DNA of 19,636 nucleotides from assembly GCF_002803295.2 (NCBI RefSeq), contig NZ_PGGB02000004.1, positions 82,265 through 101,900 of the forward strand, given 5' to 3'. The notes beneath the pieces were generated by a model. That model saw only the letters and a program-made list of their open reading frames with translations. It was not told where the DNA came from and ran no database searches. Positions 12,851 through 19,411 of the stretch are shown here, piece by piece; within the stretch, counting starts at the first letter, position 1, and the number at the start of each line of letters is the position of its first letter. This stretch comes from Caedibacter taeniospiralis (GTDB lineage Bacteria; Pseudomonadota; Gammaproteobacteria; Francisellales; Francisellaceae). The position numbers and the translations under genes were made by a program.

Positions 12851-12969
12851 ATACCTGATGATGTTCTACTTTCACATGGCGAATGCCACACTATCATCGA
12901 CGCTAACTGTTTTCACTTCTGAGTTCGGAATGGAATCAGGTGGTTCACAGTCGCTATTTTCATCAGGTA
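12851..12969 (-). rRNA. rrf: 5S rRNA
   Basis: The reverse complement reads TACCTGATGAAAATAGCGACTGTGAACCACCTGATTCCATTCCGAACTCAGAAGTGAAA...GTAGAACATCATCAGGTAT. The terminal helix pairs and the CCGAACTCAGAAGTGAAA block is universal. Confidence 0.95.
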
Positions 12970-13107
12970 ACCTGCGAGCAGAAAGCTCTAACAATCTATC
13001 ATAGAGTAATAACCAAGTCTCTCGGGCAATTAGTACTGGTTAGCTTCATACATTACTGCACTTCTACAGCCAGCCTATCAACGTCGTAGTCTTCAACAAC
13101 CCTTAAG

Positions 13108-13240
13108 CTAGAGACTAGAAACTAGAGACTAGAAACTAGAGCTTGAATCGCTTCGCGATGAATTGATTTATAAAAAACAACCCATCTTGCAAAGCAAGAC
13201 TCAACTCCTAGTTTCTAGTCTCTAGTTTCTAGTCTCTAGA
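13108..13240. mobile_element. Heptamer-armed palindromic element inserted in 23S helix 98
   Basis: Left arm CTAGAGA CTAGAAA CTAGAGA CTAGAAA CTAG (13108-13139). It is the perfect 32-nt reverse complement of the right arm (13208-13239). The core at 13141-13207 contains GAATCGCTTCGCGATGA...CCATCTTGCAAAGCAAGA. The flanks align to E. coli 23S at about 2790-2810. Confidence 0.85.
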
Positions 13241-14149
13241 CGGGAGATCTCATCTTGAGGCTGGCTTCCCGCTTAGATGCTTTCAGCGGTTATCCATTCC
13301 GAACGTAGCTACTGGGCTATGCCTCTGGCGAGACAACCCAAACACCAGCGGTTCGTTCATTCCGGTCCTCTCGTACTAGGAACAAACCCTCTCAAATCTC
13401 CTACGCCCACGGCAGATAGGGACCGAACTGTCTCACGACGTTCTAAACCCAGCTCGCGTACCACTTTAAATGGCGAACAGCCATACCCTTGGGACCTGCT
13501 TCAGCCCCAGGATGTGATGAGCCGACATCGAGGTGCCAAACTCCTCCGTCGATATGAACTCTTGGGAGGAATCAGCCTGTTATCCCCGGAGTACCTTTTA
13601 TCCGTTGAGCGATGGCCCTTCCATTCAGAACCACCGGATCACTAAGACCTACTTTCGTACCTGATCGAGCCGTCACTCTCTCAGTTAAGCGCACTTTTGC
13701 CTTTATACTCTTGGCGCGATTTCCGACCGCGCCGAGTGCACCTTCGTACTCCTCCGTTACTCTTTAGGAGGAGACCGCCCCAGTCAAACTACCCACCATA
13801 CACTGTCCTCGACTCTCGTCTGAGTTAGAACTCCAAAAATATCAGGGTGGTATTTCAACGTCGACTCCTTCCATACTAGCGTACGAATCTCTTAGTCTCC
13901 CACCTATCCTACACAAATATTCTCAAAGTCCAGTGCAAAGCTATAGTAAAGGTTCACGGGGTCTTTCCGTCTAACCGCGGGTACGCTGCATCTTCACAGC
14001 GATTTCAATTTCACTGAGTCCCAGATGGAGACAGTGTGGCCATCGTTACGCCATTCGTGCAGGTCGGAACTTACCCGACAAGGAATTTCGCTACCTTAGG
14101 ACCGTTATAGTTACGGCCGCCGTTTACTGGGGCTTCGATCCAGAGCTTC

Positions 14150-14452
14150 TCCTACCACTTAATTACTCTGATATTTCTTCTCTTAAGCCTTTATACAACA
14201 AACTCCTCATTCGATTCGCTCGCTTTAATTTAGCTTCTCTTAACCTAGCAAGCTTTTCACTTGCGTAAGCTTCGTAGTAGACAAGAATCCAATCTCTCGT
14301 TCGGCTTGTATATCTACTTCTACCCGACTTATGCGAATCAATCCTTTTCCTTAGGTTTTCACTATAACCCACAAGTAAAAACTATCTAATTCTTTCGAAT
14401 AAATCACGTATACACAATACATATCAAACTCCAAAATAATTAAGTGGTAGGA
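14150..14452. other. 23S intervening sequence at the tip of the H68 region (about E. coli 1865-1875), carrying a GIY-YIG ORF
   Basis: A perfect 16-bp inverted repeat: TCCTACCACTTAATTA (14150-14165) and TAATTAAGTGGTAGGA (14437-14452). The flanking rRNA reads GGGGTTATCC..[insert]..GGAGAAGCTCTGGATCGAAGCCCC, against E. coli GGGGUUAGCGCAAGCGAAGCUCUUGAUCGAAGCCCC. Confidence 0.8.
14163..14422 (-). pseudogene. Small GIY-YIG nuclease-family ORF (COG2827/UPF0213-like), split by a 1-nt frameshift
   Basis: ATG 14422 is preceded by TGGAG 6 nt upstream and gives MYCVYVIYSKELDSFYL (the GIY half), then stops at 14351-14353. The -1 frame from 14372 continues VGYSENLRKRIDSHKSGRSRYTSRTRDWILVYYEAYASEKLARLREAKLKR (the YIG..R..H..G...E half). 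That second frame is the track ORF 14163-14372. Same strand as the rRNA. Confidence 0.7.
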
Positions 14453-14591
14453 TAACCCCTTCAATTAACCTTCCAGCACCGGGCAGGCGTCACACCCTAT
14501 ACTTCCTCTTCCGAGTTCGCAGAGTGCTGTGTTTTTAGTAAACAGTCGCAGCCACCTGGTATTTGCAACCTCTTCACGCTCCAGACGTTCA

Positions 14592-14691
14592 CCTGACCAC
14601 TAAATTCCACGTCCTACAACAGGCTATCAACAAATTGTCTATCTCTACAACTCTCAACAGCTTTCATCCATCATAGAATTTAGTGGTCAGG
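14592..14691. other. 23S intervening sequence in helix 63 (100 bp, no ORF)
   Basis: A perfect 16-bp inverted repeat: CCTGACCACTAAATTC (14592-14607) and GAATTTAGTGGTCAGG (14676-14691). The flanks align with the variable H63 region of E. coli 23S (about 1700-1745). Confidence 0.75.
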
Positions 14692-17249: not shown

Positions 17250-17325
17250 TGGTGGAGCCAAGGAGGATCGAACTCCTGACCTCCTGCGTGCAAAGCAGGC
17301 GCTCTCCCAGCTGAGCTATGGCCCC
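17250..17325 (-). tRNA. tRNA-Ala (anticodon TGC), CCA encoded
   Basis: The reverse complement is GGGGCCATAGCTCAGCTGGGAGAGCGCCTGCTTTGCACGCAGGAGGTCAGGAGTTCGATCCTCCTTGGCTCCACCA. It has the G3:U70 identity pair and a cloverleaf very close to E. coli tRNA-Ala(UGC). Confidence 0.97.
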
Positions 17326-17467
17326 TCTAGATACTAGAACGCTCGCTGCGCTTACTCTAGAAACTAGAAACCAGACTCGAATCGCTTCGCGATGATTCAT
17401 TTAAAAAATCATCTCGCACAGCAAGATTCAATCCCTAGTTTCTAGTCTCTTGACACTAGTCTCTAGA
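17326..17467. mobile_element. Heptamer-armed element, spacer copy b (tRNA-Ile to tRNA-Ala)
   Basis: Identical to 17108-17249. It lies directly 3' of the tRNA-Ile CCA end in the transcript. Confidence 0.85.
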
Positions 17468-17544
17468 TGGTGGGTCTGAGTAGACTTGAACTACCGACCT
17501 CACCCTTATCAGGGGTGCGCTCTAACCAGCTGAGCTACAGACCC
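17468..17544 (-). tRNA. tRNA-Ile (anticodon GAT), CCA encoded
   Basis: The reverse complement is GGGTCTGTAGCTCAGCTGGTTAGAGCGCACCCCTGATAAGGGTGAGGTCGGTAGTTCAAGTCTACTCAGACCCACCA, near-identical in core to E. coli tRNA-Ile(GAU). Confidence 0.97.
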
Positions 17545-17545
17545 A

Positions 17546-17658
17546 CTAGATACTAGAGACTAGAGACTAGTTTCTAGAAGTATTCTAGTTTCTAGTCTCT
17601 AGTCTCTAGTCTCTAGTTTCTAGTTTCTAGTTTCTAGTCTCTAGTTTCTAGTCTCTAG
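17546..17658. repeat. Core-less heptamer array between 16S and tRNA-Ile
   Basis: CTAGATA CTAGAGA CTAGAGA CTAG (17546-17570), then TTTCTAG AAGTATT, then ten consecutive 7-bp units CTAGTTT/CTAGTCT starting at 17585, 17592 ... 17648, closed by CTAG (17655-17658). Confidence 0.9.
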
Positions 17659-17775
17659 AAAAAACATCATTTGTAAACACTCAAATACTTCTCGCTCTTT
17701 CTTAATTTCTTTCGTACTTCAAACATCAAAAATTCAACATTCAACATTAAAAATTCAACATCATACTCGTACCTT

Positions 17776-19411
17776 TAAGGAGGTGATCCAGCCGCAGGTT
17801 CCCCTACGGCTACCTTGTTACGACTTCACCCCAGTCATGAATCACAAAGTGGTAAACGTCCCCCTTACGGTTAGACTATCTACTTCTTTTGCAACCCACT
17901 CCCATGGTGTGACGGGCGGTGTGTACAAGACCCGGGAACGTATTCACCGCGGCATGCTGATCCGCGATTACTAGCGATTCCGACTTCATGCGCTCGAGTT
18001 GCAGAGCGCAATCCGGACTACGAACACCTTTCTGAGTTTCGCTTCAGCTCGCACCTTCGCCTCCCTCTGTAATGCCCATTGTAGCACGTGTGTAGCCCTG
18101 CCCGTAAGGGCCATGATGACTTGACGTCGTCCCCACCTTCCTCCGCCTTATCAGCGGCAGTCTCTCTAGAGTGCCCAACTTAATGATGGCAACTAAAAAT
18201 AAGGGTTGCGCTCGTTGCGGGACTTAACCCAACATTTCACAACACGAGCTGACGACAGCCATGCAGCACCTGTCTCATAGTTCCCGAAGGCACAACAAAA
18301 TCTCTCTCGTCTTCTATGGATGTCAAGGGCAGGTAAGGTTCTTCGCGTTGCATCGAATTAAACCACATGCTCCACCGCTTGTGCGGGTCCCCGTCAATTC
18401 CTTTGAGTTTTAACCTTGCGGCCGTAGTCCCCAGGCGGAGTACTTATCGCGTTTGCTGCGCCACTAATCCTTTTACACCAGGACCAACAGCTAGTACTCA
18501 TCGTTTACAGCGTGGACTACCAGGGTATCTAATCCTGTTTGATCCCCACGCTTTCGTCCCTCAGTGTCAGTTCAACCCCAGATTGTTGCCTTCGCCATTG
18601 ATGTTCCTTCCGATCTCTACGCATTTCACCGCTACACCGGAAATTCCCCAATCCTCTAGTAAACTCTAGTCAAACAGTTTCAAATGACCCTCCCAGGTTG
18701 AGCCCAGGTATTTCACATCTGACTTATCTGACCACCTACGAACCCTTTACGCCCAGTCATTCCGATTAACGCTCGCACCCTCCGTATTACCGCGGCTGCT
18801 GGCACGGAGTTTGCCGGTGCTTATTCTTTCGCTAACGTCAAACTATCCAGCTCTTAACCTGATAGCCTTCCTCACGAACTAAAGTGCTTTACAACCCTAA
18901 GGCCTTCTTCACACACGTGGTATTGCTGGATCAGGGTTGCCCCCATTGTCCAATATTCCCCACTGCTGCCTCCCGTAGGAGTCTGGGCCGTGTCTCAGTC
19001 CCAGTGTGGCTGATCTTCCTCTCAGAACAGCTATGGATCATCGCCTTGGTGAGCCTTTACCTCACCAACCAGCTAATCCAACGCAGGCTCATCATACAGC
19101 GACCGCTTGCGCGACCTTTCACCCTCAGGCTTCATGCGGTATTAGCAGACGTTTCCATCTGTTGTTCCCCTCTGTACGGCAGATTCCTACGCGTTACTCA
19201 CCCGTCCGCCGCTATCTAGAAACTAGAGACTAGAAACTAGAAAGTGGAAGTCGAACCTTACCAAGCAAGGTGATTCTTTAGAATAAATCATCGCGCAGCG
19301 ATTCAACCCCTAGTTTCTAGTTTCTAGTATCTAGTTCCTAGACCGCTCGACTTGCATGTGTTAAGCATACCACCAGCGTTCAATCTGAGCCAGGATCAAA
19401 CTCTTCAGTTT
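17776..19411 (-). rRNA. rrs: 16S rRNA gene (1636 bp) with one insert in helix 6
   Basis: 5' end: the reverse complement is AAACTGAAGAGTTTGATCCTGGCTCAGATTGAACGCTGG. 3' end: GTCGTAACAAGGTAGCCGTAGGGGAACCTGCGGCTGGATCACCTCCTTA. Universal blocks are present throughout (GTGCCAGCAGCCGCGGTAATAC, GCATGGCTGTCGTCAGCTCGTG). AT-rich segments at about 19440-19475 and about 17715-17755 are partially complementary and probably form the RNase III processing stem. Ends are accurate to about +/-3 nt. Confidence 0.95.
19216..19341. mobile_element. Heptamer-armed palindromic element replacing 16S helix 6 (V1)
   Basis: Left arm CTAGAAA CTAGAGA CTAGAAA CTAGAAA (19216-19243). Right arm CTAGTTT CTAGTTT CTAGTAT CTAGTTC CTAG (19310-19341). 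The core at 19244-19309 is of the same type and orientation as the H25 copy. The flanks are GCAAGTCGAGCGGT... and ...TAGCGGCGGACGGGTGAGTAACGCG, i.e. E. coli positions about 60-107. Confidence 0.85.

What the first reader, a model, noticed from the sequence alone, without database searches (positions are those of the whole stretch)
12851..19411. rRNA operon with at least ten insertions: predicted multi-fragmented 23S and split 16S
The 23S locus is 4062 bp, against about 2.9 kb for a canonical 23S. Aligned by eye to E. coli 23S, the surplus resolves into six discrete blocks. Each is closed by an inverted repeat and each sits at the tip of a peripheral helix:
- 16871-16943 (H9/10 area)
- 16292-16436 (H25)
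- 15246-15678 (H45)
- 14592-14691 (H63)
- 14150-14452 (about the H68 tip)
- 13108-13240 (H98)

Removing them leaves segments of about 129+434+613+554+139+909+97 = 2875 nt, essentially a normal 23S. The 16S carries a 126-bp block in helix 6, leaving pieces of about 70 and about 1440 nt. Three related blocks fill the spacers.

One or two IVSs per 23S are well known in Salmonella, Leptospira, Campylobacter and Coxiella. Six in one 23S together with a 16S IVS in the same operon is exceptional to my knowledge. H25, H45, H63 and H98 are also sites where eukaryotic expansion segments occur. The alternative to excision is therefore retained bacterial expansion segments, which would be equally interesting.
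Basis: partly seen in the sequence, partly recalled or inferred. Interest (0 to 1): 0.9.

Follow-up and report, generated by a model that had tools for sequence, protein, structure and literature searches.

The report
Ribosomal RNA operon riddled with hairpin inserts
The ribosomal RNA operon of the Paramecium symbiont Caedibacter taeniospiralis carries ten hairpin-forming inserts from two mobile-element families, which probably cut its 23S rRNA into seven pieces and its 16S into two, far more than usual for an ordinary bacterium.

Summary
Rfam finds a complete 16S–tRNA-Ile–tRNA-Ala–23S–5S operon on the minus strand, with a 4066-nt 23S and a 1636-nt 16S. The surplus sits in six discrete 23S helix tips (H9, H25, H45, H63, H68, H98), in 16S helix 6, and in all three spacers.

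The flanking proteins are 100% identical to Caedibacter taeniospiralis proteins. Independent assemblies reproduce five of the 23S inserts. The free-living relative Cysteiniphilum litorale has a 4011-nt 23S with five of the same sites occupied.

The inserts belong to two families.
- **Family 1:** arms built of tandem CTAGARA heptamers. They enclose either a 23S-IVS-protein ORF (H45) or a conserved three-hairpin core (16S h6, H25, H98, spacers).
- **Family 2:** CCT(G)ACCACTnAATT terminal inverted repeats. They enclose a frameshifted GIY-YIG ORF (H68) or nothing (H63).

Both families occur in rRNA genes of unrelated bacteria. The heptamer unit tracks the clade of the IVS protein.

The most likely mechanism is RNase III excision without religation, as shown experimentally for the homologous heptamer-bearing Coxiella IVS. 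Fragmentation itself could not be tested here.

This is a new variant of a known kind. The closest precedents are the Coxiella and Salmonella IVSs and the multi-insert rRNA genes of CPR bacteria.

The parts
17776..19411 (-). 16S rRNA gene, 1636 nt, about 100 nt longer than normal
   Evidence: Rfam RF00177, 1512 bits, model 1-1533
19215..19342 (-). Family-1 element that replaces 16S helix 6. It has CTAGRRA heptamer arms and a three-hairpin core, and the core is inverted relative to the H98 and spacer copies.
   Evidence: Insertion between E. coli 16S 76 and 100. Folds at -63 kcal/mol, z -8.5. Core alignment.
17545..17659 (-). Spacer hairpin made only of heptamer repeats (about 11 units on the 5' side, 4 on the 3' side). 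It abuts the 5' end of tRNA-Ile.
   Evidence: TRF period 7, 10.9 copies. Folds at -56.7 kcal/mol, z -8.2.
17468..17544 (-). tRNA-Ile (GAT)
   Evidence: ARAGORN; Rfam
17326..17467 (-). Family-1 element that fills the spacer from the CCA end of tRNA-Ile to tRNA-Ala
   Evidence: A homologous element sits in the same spacer of Cysteiniphilum.
17250..17325 (-). tRNA-Ala (TGC)
   Evidence: ARAGORN
17108..17249 (-). Family-1 element, 100% identical to the 17326-17467 copy. It starts right after the CCA end of tRNA-Ala and is part of a 218-bp tandem repeat. The equivalent spacer in Cysteiniphilum has no such element.
   Evidence: TRF period 218; identical sequences and folds
13009..17074 (-). 23S rRNA gene, 4066 nt: a 2847-nt core plus 1219 nt of inserts
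   Evidence: Rfam RF02541, 2531 bits, model 1-2925; MAFFT against E. coli
16833..16935 (-). H9 insert, 103 nt. A degenerate family-1 copy with one heptamer array and no matching second arm.
   Evidence: The covariance-model alignment shows a 103-nt insertion in the hairpin at model positions ~131-148. TRF array at 16876-16906. Cysteiniphilum has larger two-armed inserts here.
16292..16436 (-). H25 family-1 element with a closing stem of about 44 bp. Its core is in the opposite orientation in the assemblies L129 and L006.
   Evidence: Folds at -79.4 kcal/mol, z -12.6. L129 comparison.
15244..15680 (-). H45 intervening sequence: heptamer arms forming a stem of about 41 bp, a Shine-Dalgarno sequence, and the IVS-protein ORF
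   Evidence: Folds at -154 kcal/mol, z -7. The same arm and ORF architecture is seen in L215-L219.
15286..15636 (-). ORF of 116 aa, intact: 23S rRNA intervening-sequence protein (a four-helix bundle, Avd-like)
   Evidence: PF05635 7e-32. TIGR02436 1.9e-30 and DGR Avd 2.4e-5. 905 homologues at E<=1e-10.
14592..14691 (-). H63 insert, 100 nt with no ORF. It is a miniature family-2 element with CCTGACCACTAAATT terminal inverted repeats. Cysteiniphilum lacks it.
   Evidence: ACCACTWAWTT occurs only at the four arms of H63 and H68, against 0.03 expected. Folds with z -8.6..
14151..14451 (-). H68-tip family-2 element: CCTACCACTTAATT terminal inverted repeats forming a stem of about 21 bp, a Shine-Dalgarno sequence, and a GIY-YIG ORF
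   Evidence: About 91% nucleotide identity to the Cysteiniphilum copy at the same site.
14163..14422 (-). GIY-YIG (UPF0213-type) ORF, broken by a +2-nt insertion at 14372-14373. It is a pseudogene in this species and intact (85 aa) in relatives.
   Evidence: The repaired ORF matches PF01541 at 2.6e-15. The frameshift was located against Cysteiniphilum. The same frameshift is present in the independent assembly L129. PDB relatives 1ZG2 and 1YWL.
13108..13240 (-). H98 family-1 element with a near-perfect stem of more than 33 bp
   Evidence: Folds at -84.7 kcal/mol, z -15.2. Cysteiniphilum has an element at the same site with different arms.
17091..17102 (-). boxA-like antitermination motif GATCTTTAACAA upstream of the 23S. 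It belongs to the normal operon.
   Evidence: Read from the sequence. The same stretch is conserved in Cysteiniphilum. Its function is inferred from knowledge of rrn boxA.
12853..12967 (-). 5S rRNA
   Evidence: Rfam RF00001, 80 bits

Best explanation
This is a functional rRNA operon of Caedibacter taeniospiralis. Two families of palindromic insertion elements have colonised its surface helix tips and transcribed spacers.

**Family 1** is the IVP-type intervening sequence. Its two arms are complementary tandem heptamer arrays: CTAGARA on the 5' side and TYTCTAG on the 3' side. At H45 the arms enclose the IVS-protein gene. In 16S h6, H25, H98 and two spacers the same arms enclose a conserved three-hairpin core with no ORF. 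One spacer holds arms alone, and H9 holds a decayed copy.

**Family 2** has CCT(G)ACCACTnAATT terminal inverted repeats. At H68 they enclose a small GIY-YIG nuclease gene, now frameshifted. At H63 they enclose a 100-nt miniature with no ORF.

**How it works.**
- Shown: all of this is transcribed territory within the pre-rRNA, and each insert folds into a 20-45-bp duplex on the rRNA-sense strand.
- Inferred: RNase III cuts these duplexes as it cuts the normal 16S and 23S processing stems, and the inserts are discarded without religation. The ribosome would then be built from about seven 23S pieces (~139, 396, 611, 552, 140, 910 and 99 nt) and two 16S pieces (~69 and 1439 nt), held together by base pairing and proteins.

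The elements persist because helix tips tolerate them. They spread or homogenise at the DNA level. The cargo proteins are, or recently were, under purifying selection, so they are translated.
For: **Anatomy.** Covariance-model and E. coli alignments place every insert at a helix tip.

**Organism.** Flanking proteins are identical to WP_100551123, WP_100551125 and WP_100551127 of C. taeniospiralis.

**A real and functional gene.**
- Independent assemblies carry the same inserts.
- The core is 94.6% identical to Cysteiniphilum litorale, whose 4011-nt 23S has inserts at H9/10, H25, H45, H68 and H98.

**Stems.**
- Folding z-scores run from -4.7 to -15, and closing stems are about 21-45 bp.
- In 16 of 17 elements the rRNA-sense strand folds 5-60 kcal/mol better than its complement, with 3-28 G·U pairs against 0-4. 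This includes copies inserted in opposite orientations, so the pairing is kept at the RNA level.

**Link to proven IVSs.**
- The H45 ORF matches PF05635.
- The Coxiella burnetii H45 IVS has the same layout: an S23p ORF, a 28-bp stem and tandem GACAGAT heptamers. RNase III from Coxiella or E. coli cuts it in vitro at the start of the first repeat (PMC4990558).

**Not introns.** No Rfam match at E<=1.

**Family 2.**
- The H63 and H68 terminal repeats are shared.
- The same terminal-repeat motif flanks GIY-YIG ORFs in the H25 and H68 tips of metagenomic 23S genes.
- 26 of the 80 best GIY-YIG loci lie inside rRNA genes. 24 of those 26 have flanking inverted repeats.

**Cargo under selection.**
- GIY-YIG dN/dS is 0.10-0.16.
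- IVS proteins stay 60-83% identical although synonymous sites are saturated.

**Sites.** E. coli tolerates engineered insertions at H10, H25, H45, H63 and H98 (PMC2441807).
Against: - No RNA data were available. Cleavage at any site in this organism is inferred, not shown.
- The presence of RNase III (rnc) in this 1.3-Mb genome was not verified. A supplement search found nothing.
- The H9 insert lacks a clean two-armed stem and may not be cut.
- H68 is not among the sites shown to tolerate insertions in E. coli.
- The three-hairpin core and the heptamer sequence are conserved more than a throw-away spacer needs. This hints at an extra function that simple excision does not explain.
- The sense-strand G·U excess could partly reflect transcription-strand mutation bias or G+U-rich composition rather than selection.
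- H98 and 16S h6 are not confirmed by a second assembly of this species.
Confidence: 0.7

Rival explanations
1. Retained bacterial expansion segments. Some or all hairpins stay in the mature rRNA as solvent-exposed extensions and are not cut.
For: - Five of the six 23S sites, and 16S helix tips in general, tolerate insertions in E. coli and coincide with eukaryotic expansion-segment sites (PMC2441807).
- The three-hairpin core is conserved between genera with compensatory changes.
- The sense strand is selectively well paired, as expected of a structured RNA that is kept.
- The H9 insert has no clean RNase III-type stem.
Against: - Near-perfect duplexes of 20-45 bp are classical RNase III substrates.
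- The homologous heptamer-stemmed Coxiella IVS is cut by RNase III and then degraded.
- The same elements also fill the spacers next to tRNAs, which must be removed anyway.
- The H25 core occurs in both orientations in near-identical sequences of this species (strains or rrn copies not resolved). Apart from the H68 GIY-YIG element (91% identical), insert sequence diverges far faster than the core, at 43-67% identity against 94.6%.
- A 300-nt ORF-bearing block at the H68 tip, on the interface side of the subunit, would be awkward to keep. This last point rests on my own knowledge of ribosome structure.
Confidence: 0.17
2. A decaying or silent rRNA operon. The inserts mark a pseudogene, and other clean rrn copies make the ribosomes.
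For: - The genome has three rrn clusters (PMC5773718), and only one was examined here.
- The GIY-YIG cargo is frameshifted.
Against: - The core scores as a full-length 23S and 16S.
- Outside the H25 element and a chimeric contig tail, the window's 23S core is virtually identical to that of a second assembly.
- The core is 94.6% identical to Cysteiniphilum, which carries inserts at the same sites. So the insert-bearing gene has been kept intact over a genus-level divergence.
- The processing stems, boxA, the tRNAs and a terminator are all intact.
Confidence: 0.04
3. Self-splicing introns (group I or II). They would be removed with ligation, so the mature rRNA would be continuous.
For: - GIY-YIG and other endonuclease ORFs are typical cargo of group I introns.
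- The related locus L215 has an insert of about 900 nt carrying a LAGLIDADG ORF at E. coli 1930-1951.
Against: - No intron family is matched at the gathering threshold anywhere in the window, nor at E<=1 in the H45, H63 and H68 inserts or the spacers.
- The inserts are simple hairpins at helix tips, not in conserved core sequence.
- GIY-YIG-bearing rRNA insertions in CPR bacteria are likewise non-intron (PMC11270868).
Confidence: 0.02
4. An assembly artefact: repeat-induced misjoins created the insertions.
For: - Heptamer arrays break short-read assemblies. Contigs L002-L005 end at the operon, L133 has a run of N in H25, and L129 has a collapsed spacer and a chimeric tail.
Against: - Four independent assemblies agree base for base on H9, H45, H63 and H68.
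- A different genus has inserts at the same sites.
- Each insert is precisely bounded by the two halves of a conserved rRNA helix.
Confidence: 0.02

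Closest known systems
Coxiella burnetii 23S rRNA intervening sequence (H45, S23p/IVP ORF)
   Same: - Same helix (H45) and the same PF05635 protein family.
- Similar size (428-444 nt there, about 437 nt here).
- A terminal stem built partly of tandem heptamer repeats upstream of the ORF, with copy number varying between strains.
- There, RNase III cuts at the first repeat and the 23S is fragmented but functional (PMC4990558).
   Different: - Coxiella has a single IVS plus two group I introns. Here the heptamer arms recur at seven or more further places in one operon, including the 16S and the spacers, mostly without an ORF.
- The heptamer unit differs: CTAGARA here, GACAGAT in Coxiella. 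The Coxiella type resembles the Cysteiniphilum and Azospirillum arms.
Salmonella, Leptospira, Campylobacter and Haemophilus IVSs at H25 and H45, and the alphaproteobacterial H9 IVS
   Same: - Helix-tip inserts closed by inverted repeats.
- Excised by RNase III without religation, leaving fragmented but working 23S rRNA (PMC2672173; PMC4990558).
- H9, H25 and H45 are the classical sites.
   Different: - Those have one or two IVSs per gene, often in only some rrn copies. Here there are six in the 23S plus one in the 16S.
- H63, H68 and H98 are, to my knowledge, not classical IVS sites outside CPR bacteria.
Insertion sequences in rRNA genes of CPR (Patescibacteria) bacteria
   Same: - Many insertions per rRNA gene, up to 16.
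- They include non-intron insertions that encode GIY-YIG or 23S_rRNA_IVP proteins, mostly at stem-loop tips (PMC11270868).
- Many of my metagenomic GIY-YIG loci look like such lineages.
   Different: - The host here is a gammaproteobacterium of the family Fastidiosibacteraceae, with a culturable relative.
- There are no LAGLIDADG or group I introns in this operon.
- The inserts form two repeat families that share arms within the genome.
Fragmented 16S rRNA of 'Caedibacter caryophilus' and other 16S IVSs (Helicobacter, Campylobacter, acid-mine Rickettsiales)
   Same: An IVS near the 5' end of the 16S of a protist endosymbiont, giving a split 16S. I recall this from Springer et al. 1993. Baker et al. 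2003 is cited in PMC11909080.
   Different: - That organism is an unrelated alphaproteobacterium that shares the genus name only by history.
- Its IVS is not known to belong to a multi-copy family. I could not compare the sequences here.
Palindromic miniature elements that insert into genes (Rickettsia palindromic elements, MITEs)
   Same: - Short hairpin-forming repeats with terminal inverted repeats.
- Present in several copies and tolerated inside functional genes.
- Versions without an ORF sit next to ORF-bearing relatives.
   Different: - No target-site duplication was found.
- All copies seen so far lie within the rRNA operon, and none in the 12.8 kb of flanking DNA.
- No transposase is involved. 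The cargo is an Avd-like four-helix-bundle protein or a minimal GIY-YIG domain.
- The comparison with RPEs is from memory.

Membership tests
RNase III-excised rRNA intervening sequences (IVS) | Extra sequence at the tip of an rRNA helix, relative to the bacterial consensus | tested here: met
   Rfam covariance-model alignment and MAFFT against E. coli place all seven intragenic inserts at helix tips: H9, H25, H45, H63, H68, H98 and 16S h6.
RNase III-excised rRNA intervening sequences (IVS) | Bounded by complementary sequences that form a stable stem | tested here: met
   Closing stems of about 21-45 bp, with folding z-scores of -6 to -15. H9 is weaker (z -4.7), with no clean two-armed stem.
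RNase III-excised rRNA intervening sequences (IVS) | Removed from the precursor by RNase III without religation, so the mature rRNA is fragmented | not testable with these tools
   No RNA data. The only support is by homology to the Coxiella IVS. The presence of rnc in this genome was not verified.
IVP-type H45 IVS (Leptospira/Coxiella type) | ORF of the 23S_rRNA_IVP / four-helix-bundle family inside the IVS | tested here: met
   PF05635 at 7e-32 and TIGR02436 at 1.9e-30. The ORF is intact at 116 aa and preceded by GGAG.
IVP-type H45 IVS (Leptospira/Coxiella type) | Tandem heptamer repeats in the stem upstream of the ORF, as described for Coxiella | tested here: met
   TRF finds period-7 arrays at 15245-15279 and 15645-15680. 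The same is seen in L215, L216, L218, L219, L133 and L220.
GIY-YIG-encoding non-intron rRNA insertions (described in CPR bacteria) | GIY-YIG domain ORF inside an rRNA-gene insertion that has no intron ribozyme | tested here: met
   PF01541 at 2.6e-15 after frameshift repair. No Rfam intron match. 26 of 80 homologous loci lie inside rRNA genes.
GIY-YIG-encoding non-intron rRNA insertions (described in CPR bacteria) | Intact, presumably active endonuclease | tested here: not met
   A +2-nt frameshift at 14372-14373, reproduced in L129. The ORF is intact in L128, Cysteiniphilum and L130, with dN/dS of 0.10-0.16.
Group I / group II introns | Conserved ribozyme core detectable by covariance models | tested here: not met
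   No intron family at the gathering threshold in the window, nor at E<=1 in the inserts searched.
Retained rRNA expansion segments | The insert is present in the mature rRNA of the ribosome | not testable with these tools
   This needs RNA or ribosome data. The sites match insertion-tolerant and expansion-segment sites, except H68.
MITE-like transposable elements | Terminal inverted repeats plus target-site duplication, with dispersed copies across the genome | tested here: inconclusive
   Terminal inverted repeats are present in both families. I saw no target-site duplication on reading the junctions. There are no copies in the 12.8 kb outside the operon. The rest of the genome was not available.

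The most novel reading that the evidence does not exclude
The heptamer-repeat arms may be sequence-specific recognition modules for the IVS-encoded, Avd-like four-helix-bundle protein (IVP), and not just any double-stranded RNA for RNase III.

**Supporting observations.**
- The arm unit tracks the IVP clade across distant bacteria. CTAGARA goes with clade 1: the window, L215, L216, L218 and L219. GACAGAR goes with clade 2: Cysteiniphilum and Azospirillum. Coxiella's published GACAGAT repeats are of the clade-2 type, but I did not place its IVS protein in either clade.
- The unit is conserved although synonymous sites in the ORF are saturated.
- In Caedibacter and Cysteiniphilum, the ORF-less three-hairpin elements at orthologous sites keep a homologous core but wear the arm type of the resident IVP.

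**What this would mean.** The IVP plus its heptamer arms would form an rRNA-operon-specific mobile or homogenising system. It would act in trans on non-autonomous copies. In parallel, a minimal GIY-YIG element with CCCCNCACC-type terminal repeats hops between helix tips.
Probability: 0.25. Interest if true: 0.8.

Novelty: new variant of a known kind. Interest (0 to 1): 0.62.

Why it matters
- **Extent of fragmentation.** If the predicted cuts occur, this would be, to my knowledge, the most fragmented rRNA reported in a bacterium outside the CPR: a 23S in about seven pieces and a 16S in two. It sits in a family (Fastidiosibacteraceae) with a culturable and clinically emerging member, Cysteiniphilum, so the prediction can be tested with a simple RNA gel.
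- **Function of the IVS protein.** The link between IVS-protein clade and heptamer arm type gives a concrete hypothesis for a protein that has had no known function since 1993. Both partners are on one small piece of DNA.
- **GIY-YIG elements.** These elements were so far noted in CPR bacteria. Here they also live in proteobacterial 23S genes, share conserved terminal repeats, and leave miniature derivatives.
- **Practical consequences.** Such inserts break short-read assemblies of rrn operons, inflate amplicon sizes, and can mislead 16S/23S-based typing and rRNA depletion kits.

Tried and rejected
1. **Genome-collection scan.** The single genome-contig scan used CTAGARACTAGARACTAG. The pattern was too unspecific. 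It gave 120 mostly chance hits in unrelated bacteria. The one Coxiellaceae hit (L036) is an intergenic 2.5-unit array and not rRNA.
2. **Exact-protein look-up of the RimO-like ORF** failed, probably because of a wrong start codon. The permease ORF worked.
3. **Literature.**
   - Beier et al. 2002, the paper with the 16S of C. taeniospiralis, is not held. I cannot exclude that the h6 insert was noted there.
   - The two genome papers do not mention rRNA inserts.
   - No paper in the library links Fastidiosibacteraceae or Francisella with IVSs.
4. **RNase III gene.** A search for it in the Dual-Seq supplement found nothing.
5. **Formal covariation counting on the three-hairpin core** was abandoned. 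MAFFT misaligned hairpins A and B by one column between genera. I relied instead on per-copy folds and visible compensatory changes.
6. **Internal homology between the H63 and H68 inserts.** Only the terminal ~15 nt are alike.
7. **AGTTGAT heptamer array in L187's H68 insertion.** It is not part of an inverted repeat.
8. **blastn of the H98 element against plasmids** found only heptamer-like arrays on two small Acinetobacter plasmids.
9. **Site-specific homing by GIY-YIG lineage.** The tree of the ~85-aa proteins intermixes H25 and H68 residents. Strict site-specific homing is therefore not supported, but the tree has no support values.

Full report
**Observation.** Rfam covariance models find a complete bacterial rRNA operon on the minus strand:
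- 16S at 19411-17776 (1636 nt, model 1-1533)
- 23S at 17074-13009 (4066 nt, model 1-2925, 2531 bits)
- 5S at 12967-12853
- tRNA-Ile and tRNA-Ala in the spacer

A MAFFT alignment to an E. coli operon (L001) confines the surplus to discrete blocks after E. coli 23S positions ~130-171, ~540, ~1163-1171, ~1734, ~1867 and ~2788-2804, and between 16S positions 76 and 100. These correspond to H9/10, H25, H45, H63, H68, H98 and 16S helix 6.

Reading the junctions gives these inserts:
- 19215-19342 (16S h6)
- 16292-16436 (H25)
- 15244-15680 (H45)
- 14592-14691 (H63)
- 14151-14451 (H68)
- 13108-13240 (H98)

The covariance model places the first 23S insert as 103 nt in the H9 loop, at 16833-16935. The core that remains is 2847 nt of 23S and 1508 nt of 16S. 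The three spacers are filled by related blocks at 17545-17659, 17326-17467 and 17108-17249. So there are ten insertions, as claimed.

**Whose operon, and is it real?** The neighbouring proteins are identical to RefSeq proteins of Caedibacter taeniospiralis. This is the gammaproteobacterial 'killer' endosymbiont of Paramecium tetraurelia. It has a 1.3-Mb genome at 41% GC with three rrn clusters (PMC5773718; PMC7297999). Neither genome paper mentions rRNA inserts.

Independent assemblies reproduce the inserts. L129 (4314 nt) matches the window across H9, H45, H63 and H68 with at most one mismatch per insert. L006 and L007 cover H25 and H45. The only differences in L129 are a chimeric 3' tail and the H25 element. 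H98 and 16S h6 are not independently confirmed for this species.

**Family 1: heptamer-armed elements.** The motif CTAGARACTAG occurs 44 times in the window, against 0.01 expected, and every occurrence is inside the operon. TRF reports period-7 arrays at both ends of the 16S h6, H25, H45 and H98 inserts and in all three spacers. The 5' array (CTAGARA)n pairs with the 3' array (TYTCTAG)n to give near-perfect stems of 30-45 bp. Free energies are -57 to -85 kcal/mol, with z-scores of -6 to -15.

What lies between the arms differs by site:
- **H45:** a Shine-Dalgarno sequence and an intact 116-aa ORF of the 23S-rRNA-IVS-protein family. It matches PF05635 at 7e-32 and TIGR02436, with a weak match to the DGR protein Avd.
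- **16S h6, H25, H98 and two spacers:** an approximately 60-nt core of three small hairpins. Hairpin A is TCTTGC-nnn-GCAAGA, hairpin B is GATGATT…AATCATC, and hairpin C is TCGC-GAA-GCGA.
- **One spacer:** arms only.
- **H9:** a decayed copy with one array.

The 16S h6 and H25 copies are inverted relative to the others. In L129 and L006 the H25 core has the opposite orientation to the window. The arms can therefore mediate inversion or replacement of the core.

**Family 2: GIY-YIG elements.** The H68 insert is closed by CCTACCACTTAATT/AATTAAGTGGTAGG, a stem of about 21 bp. It contains a Shine-Dalgarno sequence and an ORF that, after removal of 2 nt at 14372-14373, is an 85-aa GIY-YIG domain. 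It matches PF01541 at 2.6e-15 and is of the UPF0213 type, with PDB relatives 1ZG2 and 1YWL.

The frameshift is also present in L129, so it is real. The ORF is intact in three relatives:
- a close relative (L128, 93% nucleotide identity)
- Cysteiniphilum litorale
- a more distant bacterium (L130), whose 23S has only this one insert

dN/dS among the three closely related copies (the repaired window ORF, L128 and Cysteiniphilum) is 0.10-0.16. The protein is therefore made and matters wherever the ORF is intact.

The 100-nt H63 insert has no ORF but ends in CCTGACCACTAAATT/AATTTAGTGGTCAGG. The motif ACCACTWAWTT occurs exactly four times in the window, at the four arms of H63 and H68, against 0.03 expected. 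I chose this pattern after seeing the arms. H63 is empty in Cysteiniphilum. I read H63 as a miniature, non-autonomous derivative that moved to a new helix tip in the Caedibacter lineage.

**Distribution of family 2.** A metagenome scan with a GIY-YIG alignment gave 491 relatives. Of the 80 best, 26 lie inside rRNA genes at recurring tips:
- 23S H68: 7 loci
- 23S H25: 11 loci
- 23S H9/10: 1 locus
- 23S E. coli 270-378: 2 loci
- 16S h6, h17 and h44

Of these 26, 24 are flanked by inverted repeats. Many repeats are of the form CCCC-N-CACC(A)CTnAAT, for example L161 and L142 at H25, and L136 and L130 at H68. Some 23S genes carry two such elements, as in L169 and L206 at H45 plus H68. A neighbour-joining tree mixes H25 and H68 residents (no support values). 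This argues for movement between tips and against strict site-specific homing.

GIY-YIG ORFs in non-intron rRNA insertions were already noted for CPR bacteria (PMC11270868). L136, L154 and L214 show them in gammaproteobacteria-like rRNA with 84-85% 16S identity to the window.

**Comparison with Cysteiniphilum litorale.** Its rrn contig (L133) has a 4011-nt 23S with inserts at H9/10, H25 (an assembly gap of N), H45, H68 and H98. It also has a family-1 element between tRNA-Ile and tRNA-Ala.

Identity to the window differs sharply by region:

| Region | Identity |
|---|---|
| 23S core | 94.6% |
| H68 | 91% |
| H45 | 52% |
| H98 | 48% |
| H9/10 | 43% |

The three-hairpin core is recognisably homologous. 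CATCGCGCAGCGATTCAAC is identical in the Caedibacter 16S h6 copy and the Cysteiniphilum H10 copy, and hairpins A and B show compensatory changes. All arms in Cysteiniphilum, however, are built from a different heptamer, GACAGAR/YTCTGTC. Its IVS protein is only 44% identical to the window's.

**The arms track the IVS-protein clade.** Hundreds of metagenomic IVS proteins are 60-72% identical to the window's. All four distinct homologues I could fetch sit at H45 and are flanked by CTAGARA-type arrays, found there and nowhere else in those loci:
- L215 (gammaproteobacterium-like)
- L216 and L217 (two contigs carrying the same protein)
- L218 (23S only 69% identical to E. coli)
- L219

The Azospirillum lipoferum 4B H45 IVS has a protein 61% identical to the Cysteiniphilum one. 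It has GACAGAG/ACGGAGG arrays like Cysteiniphilum. The published Coxiella burnetii IVS has three GACAGAT repeats whose number varies between strains (PMC4990558).

Synonymous sites between these ORFs are saturated (pS 0.63-1.08), while the proteins remain 44-83% identical. Even so, the heptamer unit is conserved within each clade. The arm sequence itself is therefore constrained, not only its ability to pair.

**Mechanism.** The following are shown:
- The inserts lie inside the transcribed operon.
- Each forms a long duplex.
- The duplex is better on the rRNA-sense strand than on its complement in 16 of 17 elements. The difference is -5 to -60 kcal/mol, with many G·U pairs in sense and almost none in antisense. 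This holds for elements in both orientations.

The following is inferred. RNase III, which cuts the homologous Coxiella IVS in the middle of its 28-bp stem at the first heptamer repeat, cuts these stems too. The inserts would then be discarded without religation.

This would leave 23S pieces of about 139, 396, 611, 552, 140, 910 and 99 nt, and 16S pieces of about 69 and 1439 nt. The spacer copies abut the tRNAs directly, starting right after the CCA end. They would serve as, or at least not hinder, tRNA release.

I put 0.7 on most sites being cut. H9 is the least certain. The classification of the inserts into two element families I hold at about 0.9.

**Rivals.**
- **Retention as expansion segments (0.17).** It is favoured by the conserved core and by the match to insertion-tolerant sites in E. 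coli: H10, H25, H45, H63 and H98, but not H68 (PMC2441807). It is disfavoured by the perfect long duplexes, the Coxiella precedent, the identical elements in the spacers and the free orientation of the core.
- **A silent pseudo-operon (0.04).** This is unlikely given the conserved core and the shared inserts in another genus.
- **Introns (0.02).** These are excluded by Rfam at E<=1.
- **Misassembly (0.02).** This is excluded by the independent assemblies.

**Known versus new.** These points are already known:
- IVSs at H25 and H45, and the IVS-protein family
- heptamer repeats in the Coxiella IVS
- GIY-YIG and IVS-protein ORFs in CPR rRNA insertions, with up to 16 insertions per gene

These points are new as far as the held literature shows:
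- six 23S inserts plus a 16S insert in a proteobacterial family
- ORF-less heptamer-armed copies spread over one operon
- genome-wide matching of arm type to the resident IVS-protein clade
- conserved terminal repeats of the GIY-YIG elements and a miniature derivative

I rate this a new variant of a known kind, with interest 0.62.

**Limits.**
- No RNA evidence was available.
- The presence of rnc was not checked.
- The 2002 paper with the 16S sequence is not held.

Noticed in passing
window 17107-17557: A 218-bp tandem repeat made of [tRNA + family-1 element] twice. The two 142-nt elements (17326-17467 and 17108-17249) are 100% identical, and each starts immediately after the CCACCA end of a tRNA. 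Cysteiniphilum has the element only after tRNA-Ile, so the second copy is a recent gain.
   Followed up: partly
window 13108-19342 (heptamer arms): The repeat period is 7 and the unit contains the palindrome CTAG. An array of three or more units therefore puts a UAG stop codon in all three reading frames on both arms. The GACAGAR-type arms of the other clade do not do this.
   Followed up: partly
window 1-12850 versus 12851-19411: CTAG is depleted outside the operon (15 observed, 47 expected from base composition) but occurs 86 times inside it. The inserts are 34-45% GC, against 50-52% for the rRNA core.
   Followed up: no
window 2455-2880 (+) and the small ORF next to it: A 141-aa PIN-domain ORF with an adjacent 75-aa ORF, seen in the gene calls of L002 and L003. 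It looks like a toxin-antitoxin pair in this reduced symbiont genome.
   Followed up: no
L215 (GCA_039794245.1) 3170-3340 and 5135-6052: This gammaproteobacterium-like 23S has three inserts: the CTAGARA-armed IVP IVS at H45; a 170-nt H25 insert with degenerate heptamers and a GCGCGTGAAGCGCGC hairpin resembling hairpin C of the three-hairpin core; and an insert of about 900 nt at E. coli 1930-1951 with a LAGLIDADG ORF, which is probably a group I intron as in Coxiella.
   Followed up: partly
L169 3960-4290 and 5001-5225; L206 780-1150 and 1852-2052: In these metagenomic 23S genes, two separate GIY-YIG elements occupy H45 and H68 of the same gene, each with its own terminal inverted repeats.
   Followed up: partly
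L187 3686-4693: A 1-kb insertion at the H68 tip of a divergent 23S begins with 4.4 copies of the heptamer AGTTGAT. The array is not part of an inverted repeat.
   Followed up: partly
L129 ~3930-4314 (equivalent to window 13517-13900): The last ~400 nt of this otherwise identical contig carry 66 mismatches to the window. This is probably a chimeric join with the 23S of another bacterium in a eukaryote-host assembly.
   Followed up: no
plasmids NZ_CP010400.1 and NZ_CP114259.1 (Acinetobacter, 9.3 kb): These small plasmids contain 21 to 40 or more places matching the CTAGTYT heptamer array of the H98 element at 88% identity. They are possibly iteron-like repeats and are probably unrelated.
   Followed up: no
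L133 2685-2774: The Cysteiniphilum litorale rrn contig has a run of N exactly in the H25 insert, and its 16S starts just after helix 6. The repeat elements evidently break short-read assemblies. This may explain the 'partially incomplete or potentially split' rRNA clusters noted for this family in PMC7297999.
   Followed up: no
window 12818-12841 (-): A GC-rich hairpin followed by a T run (AAGGCACCCTGAGGGTGCCTTTTTT) lies directly after the 5S gene. It is a probable intrinsic terminator of the operon.
   Followed up: no
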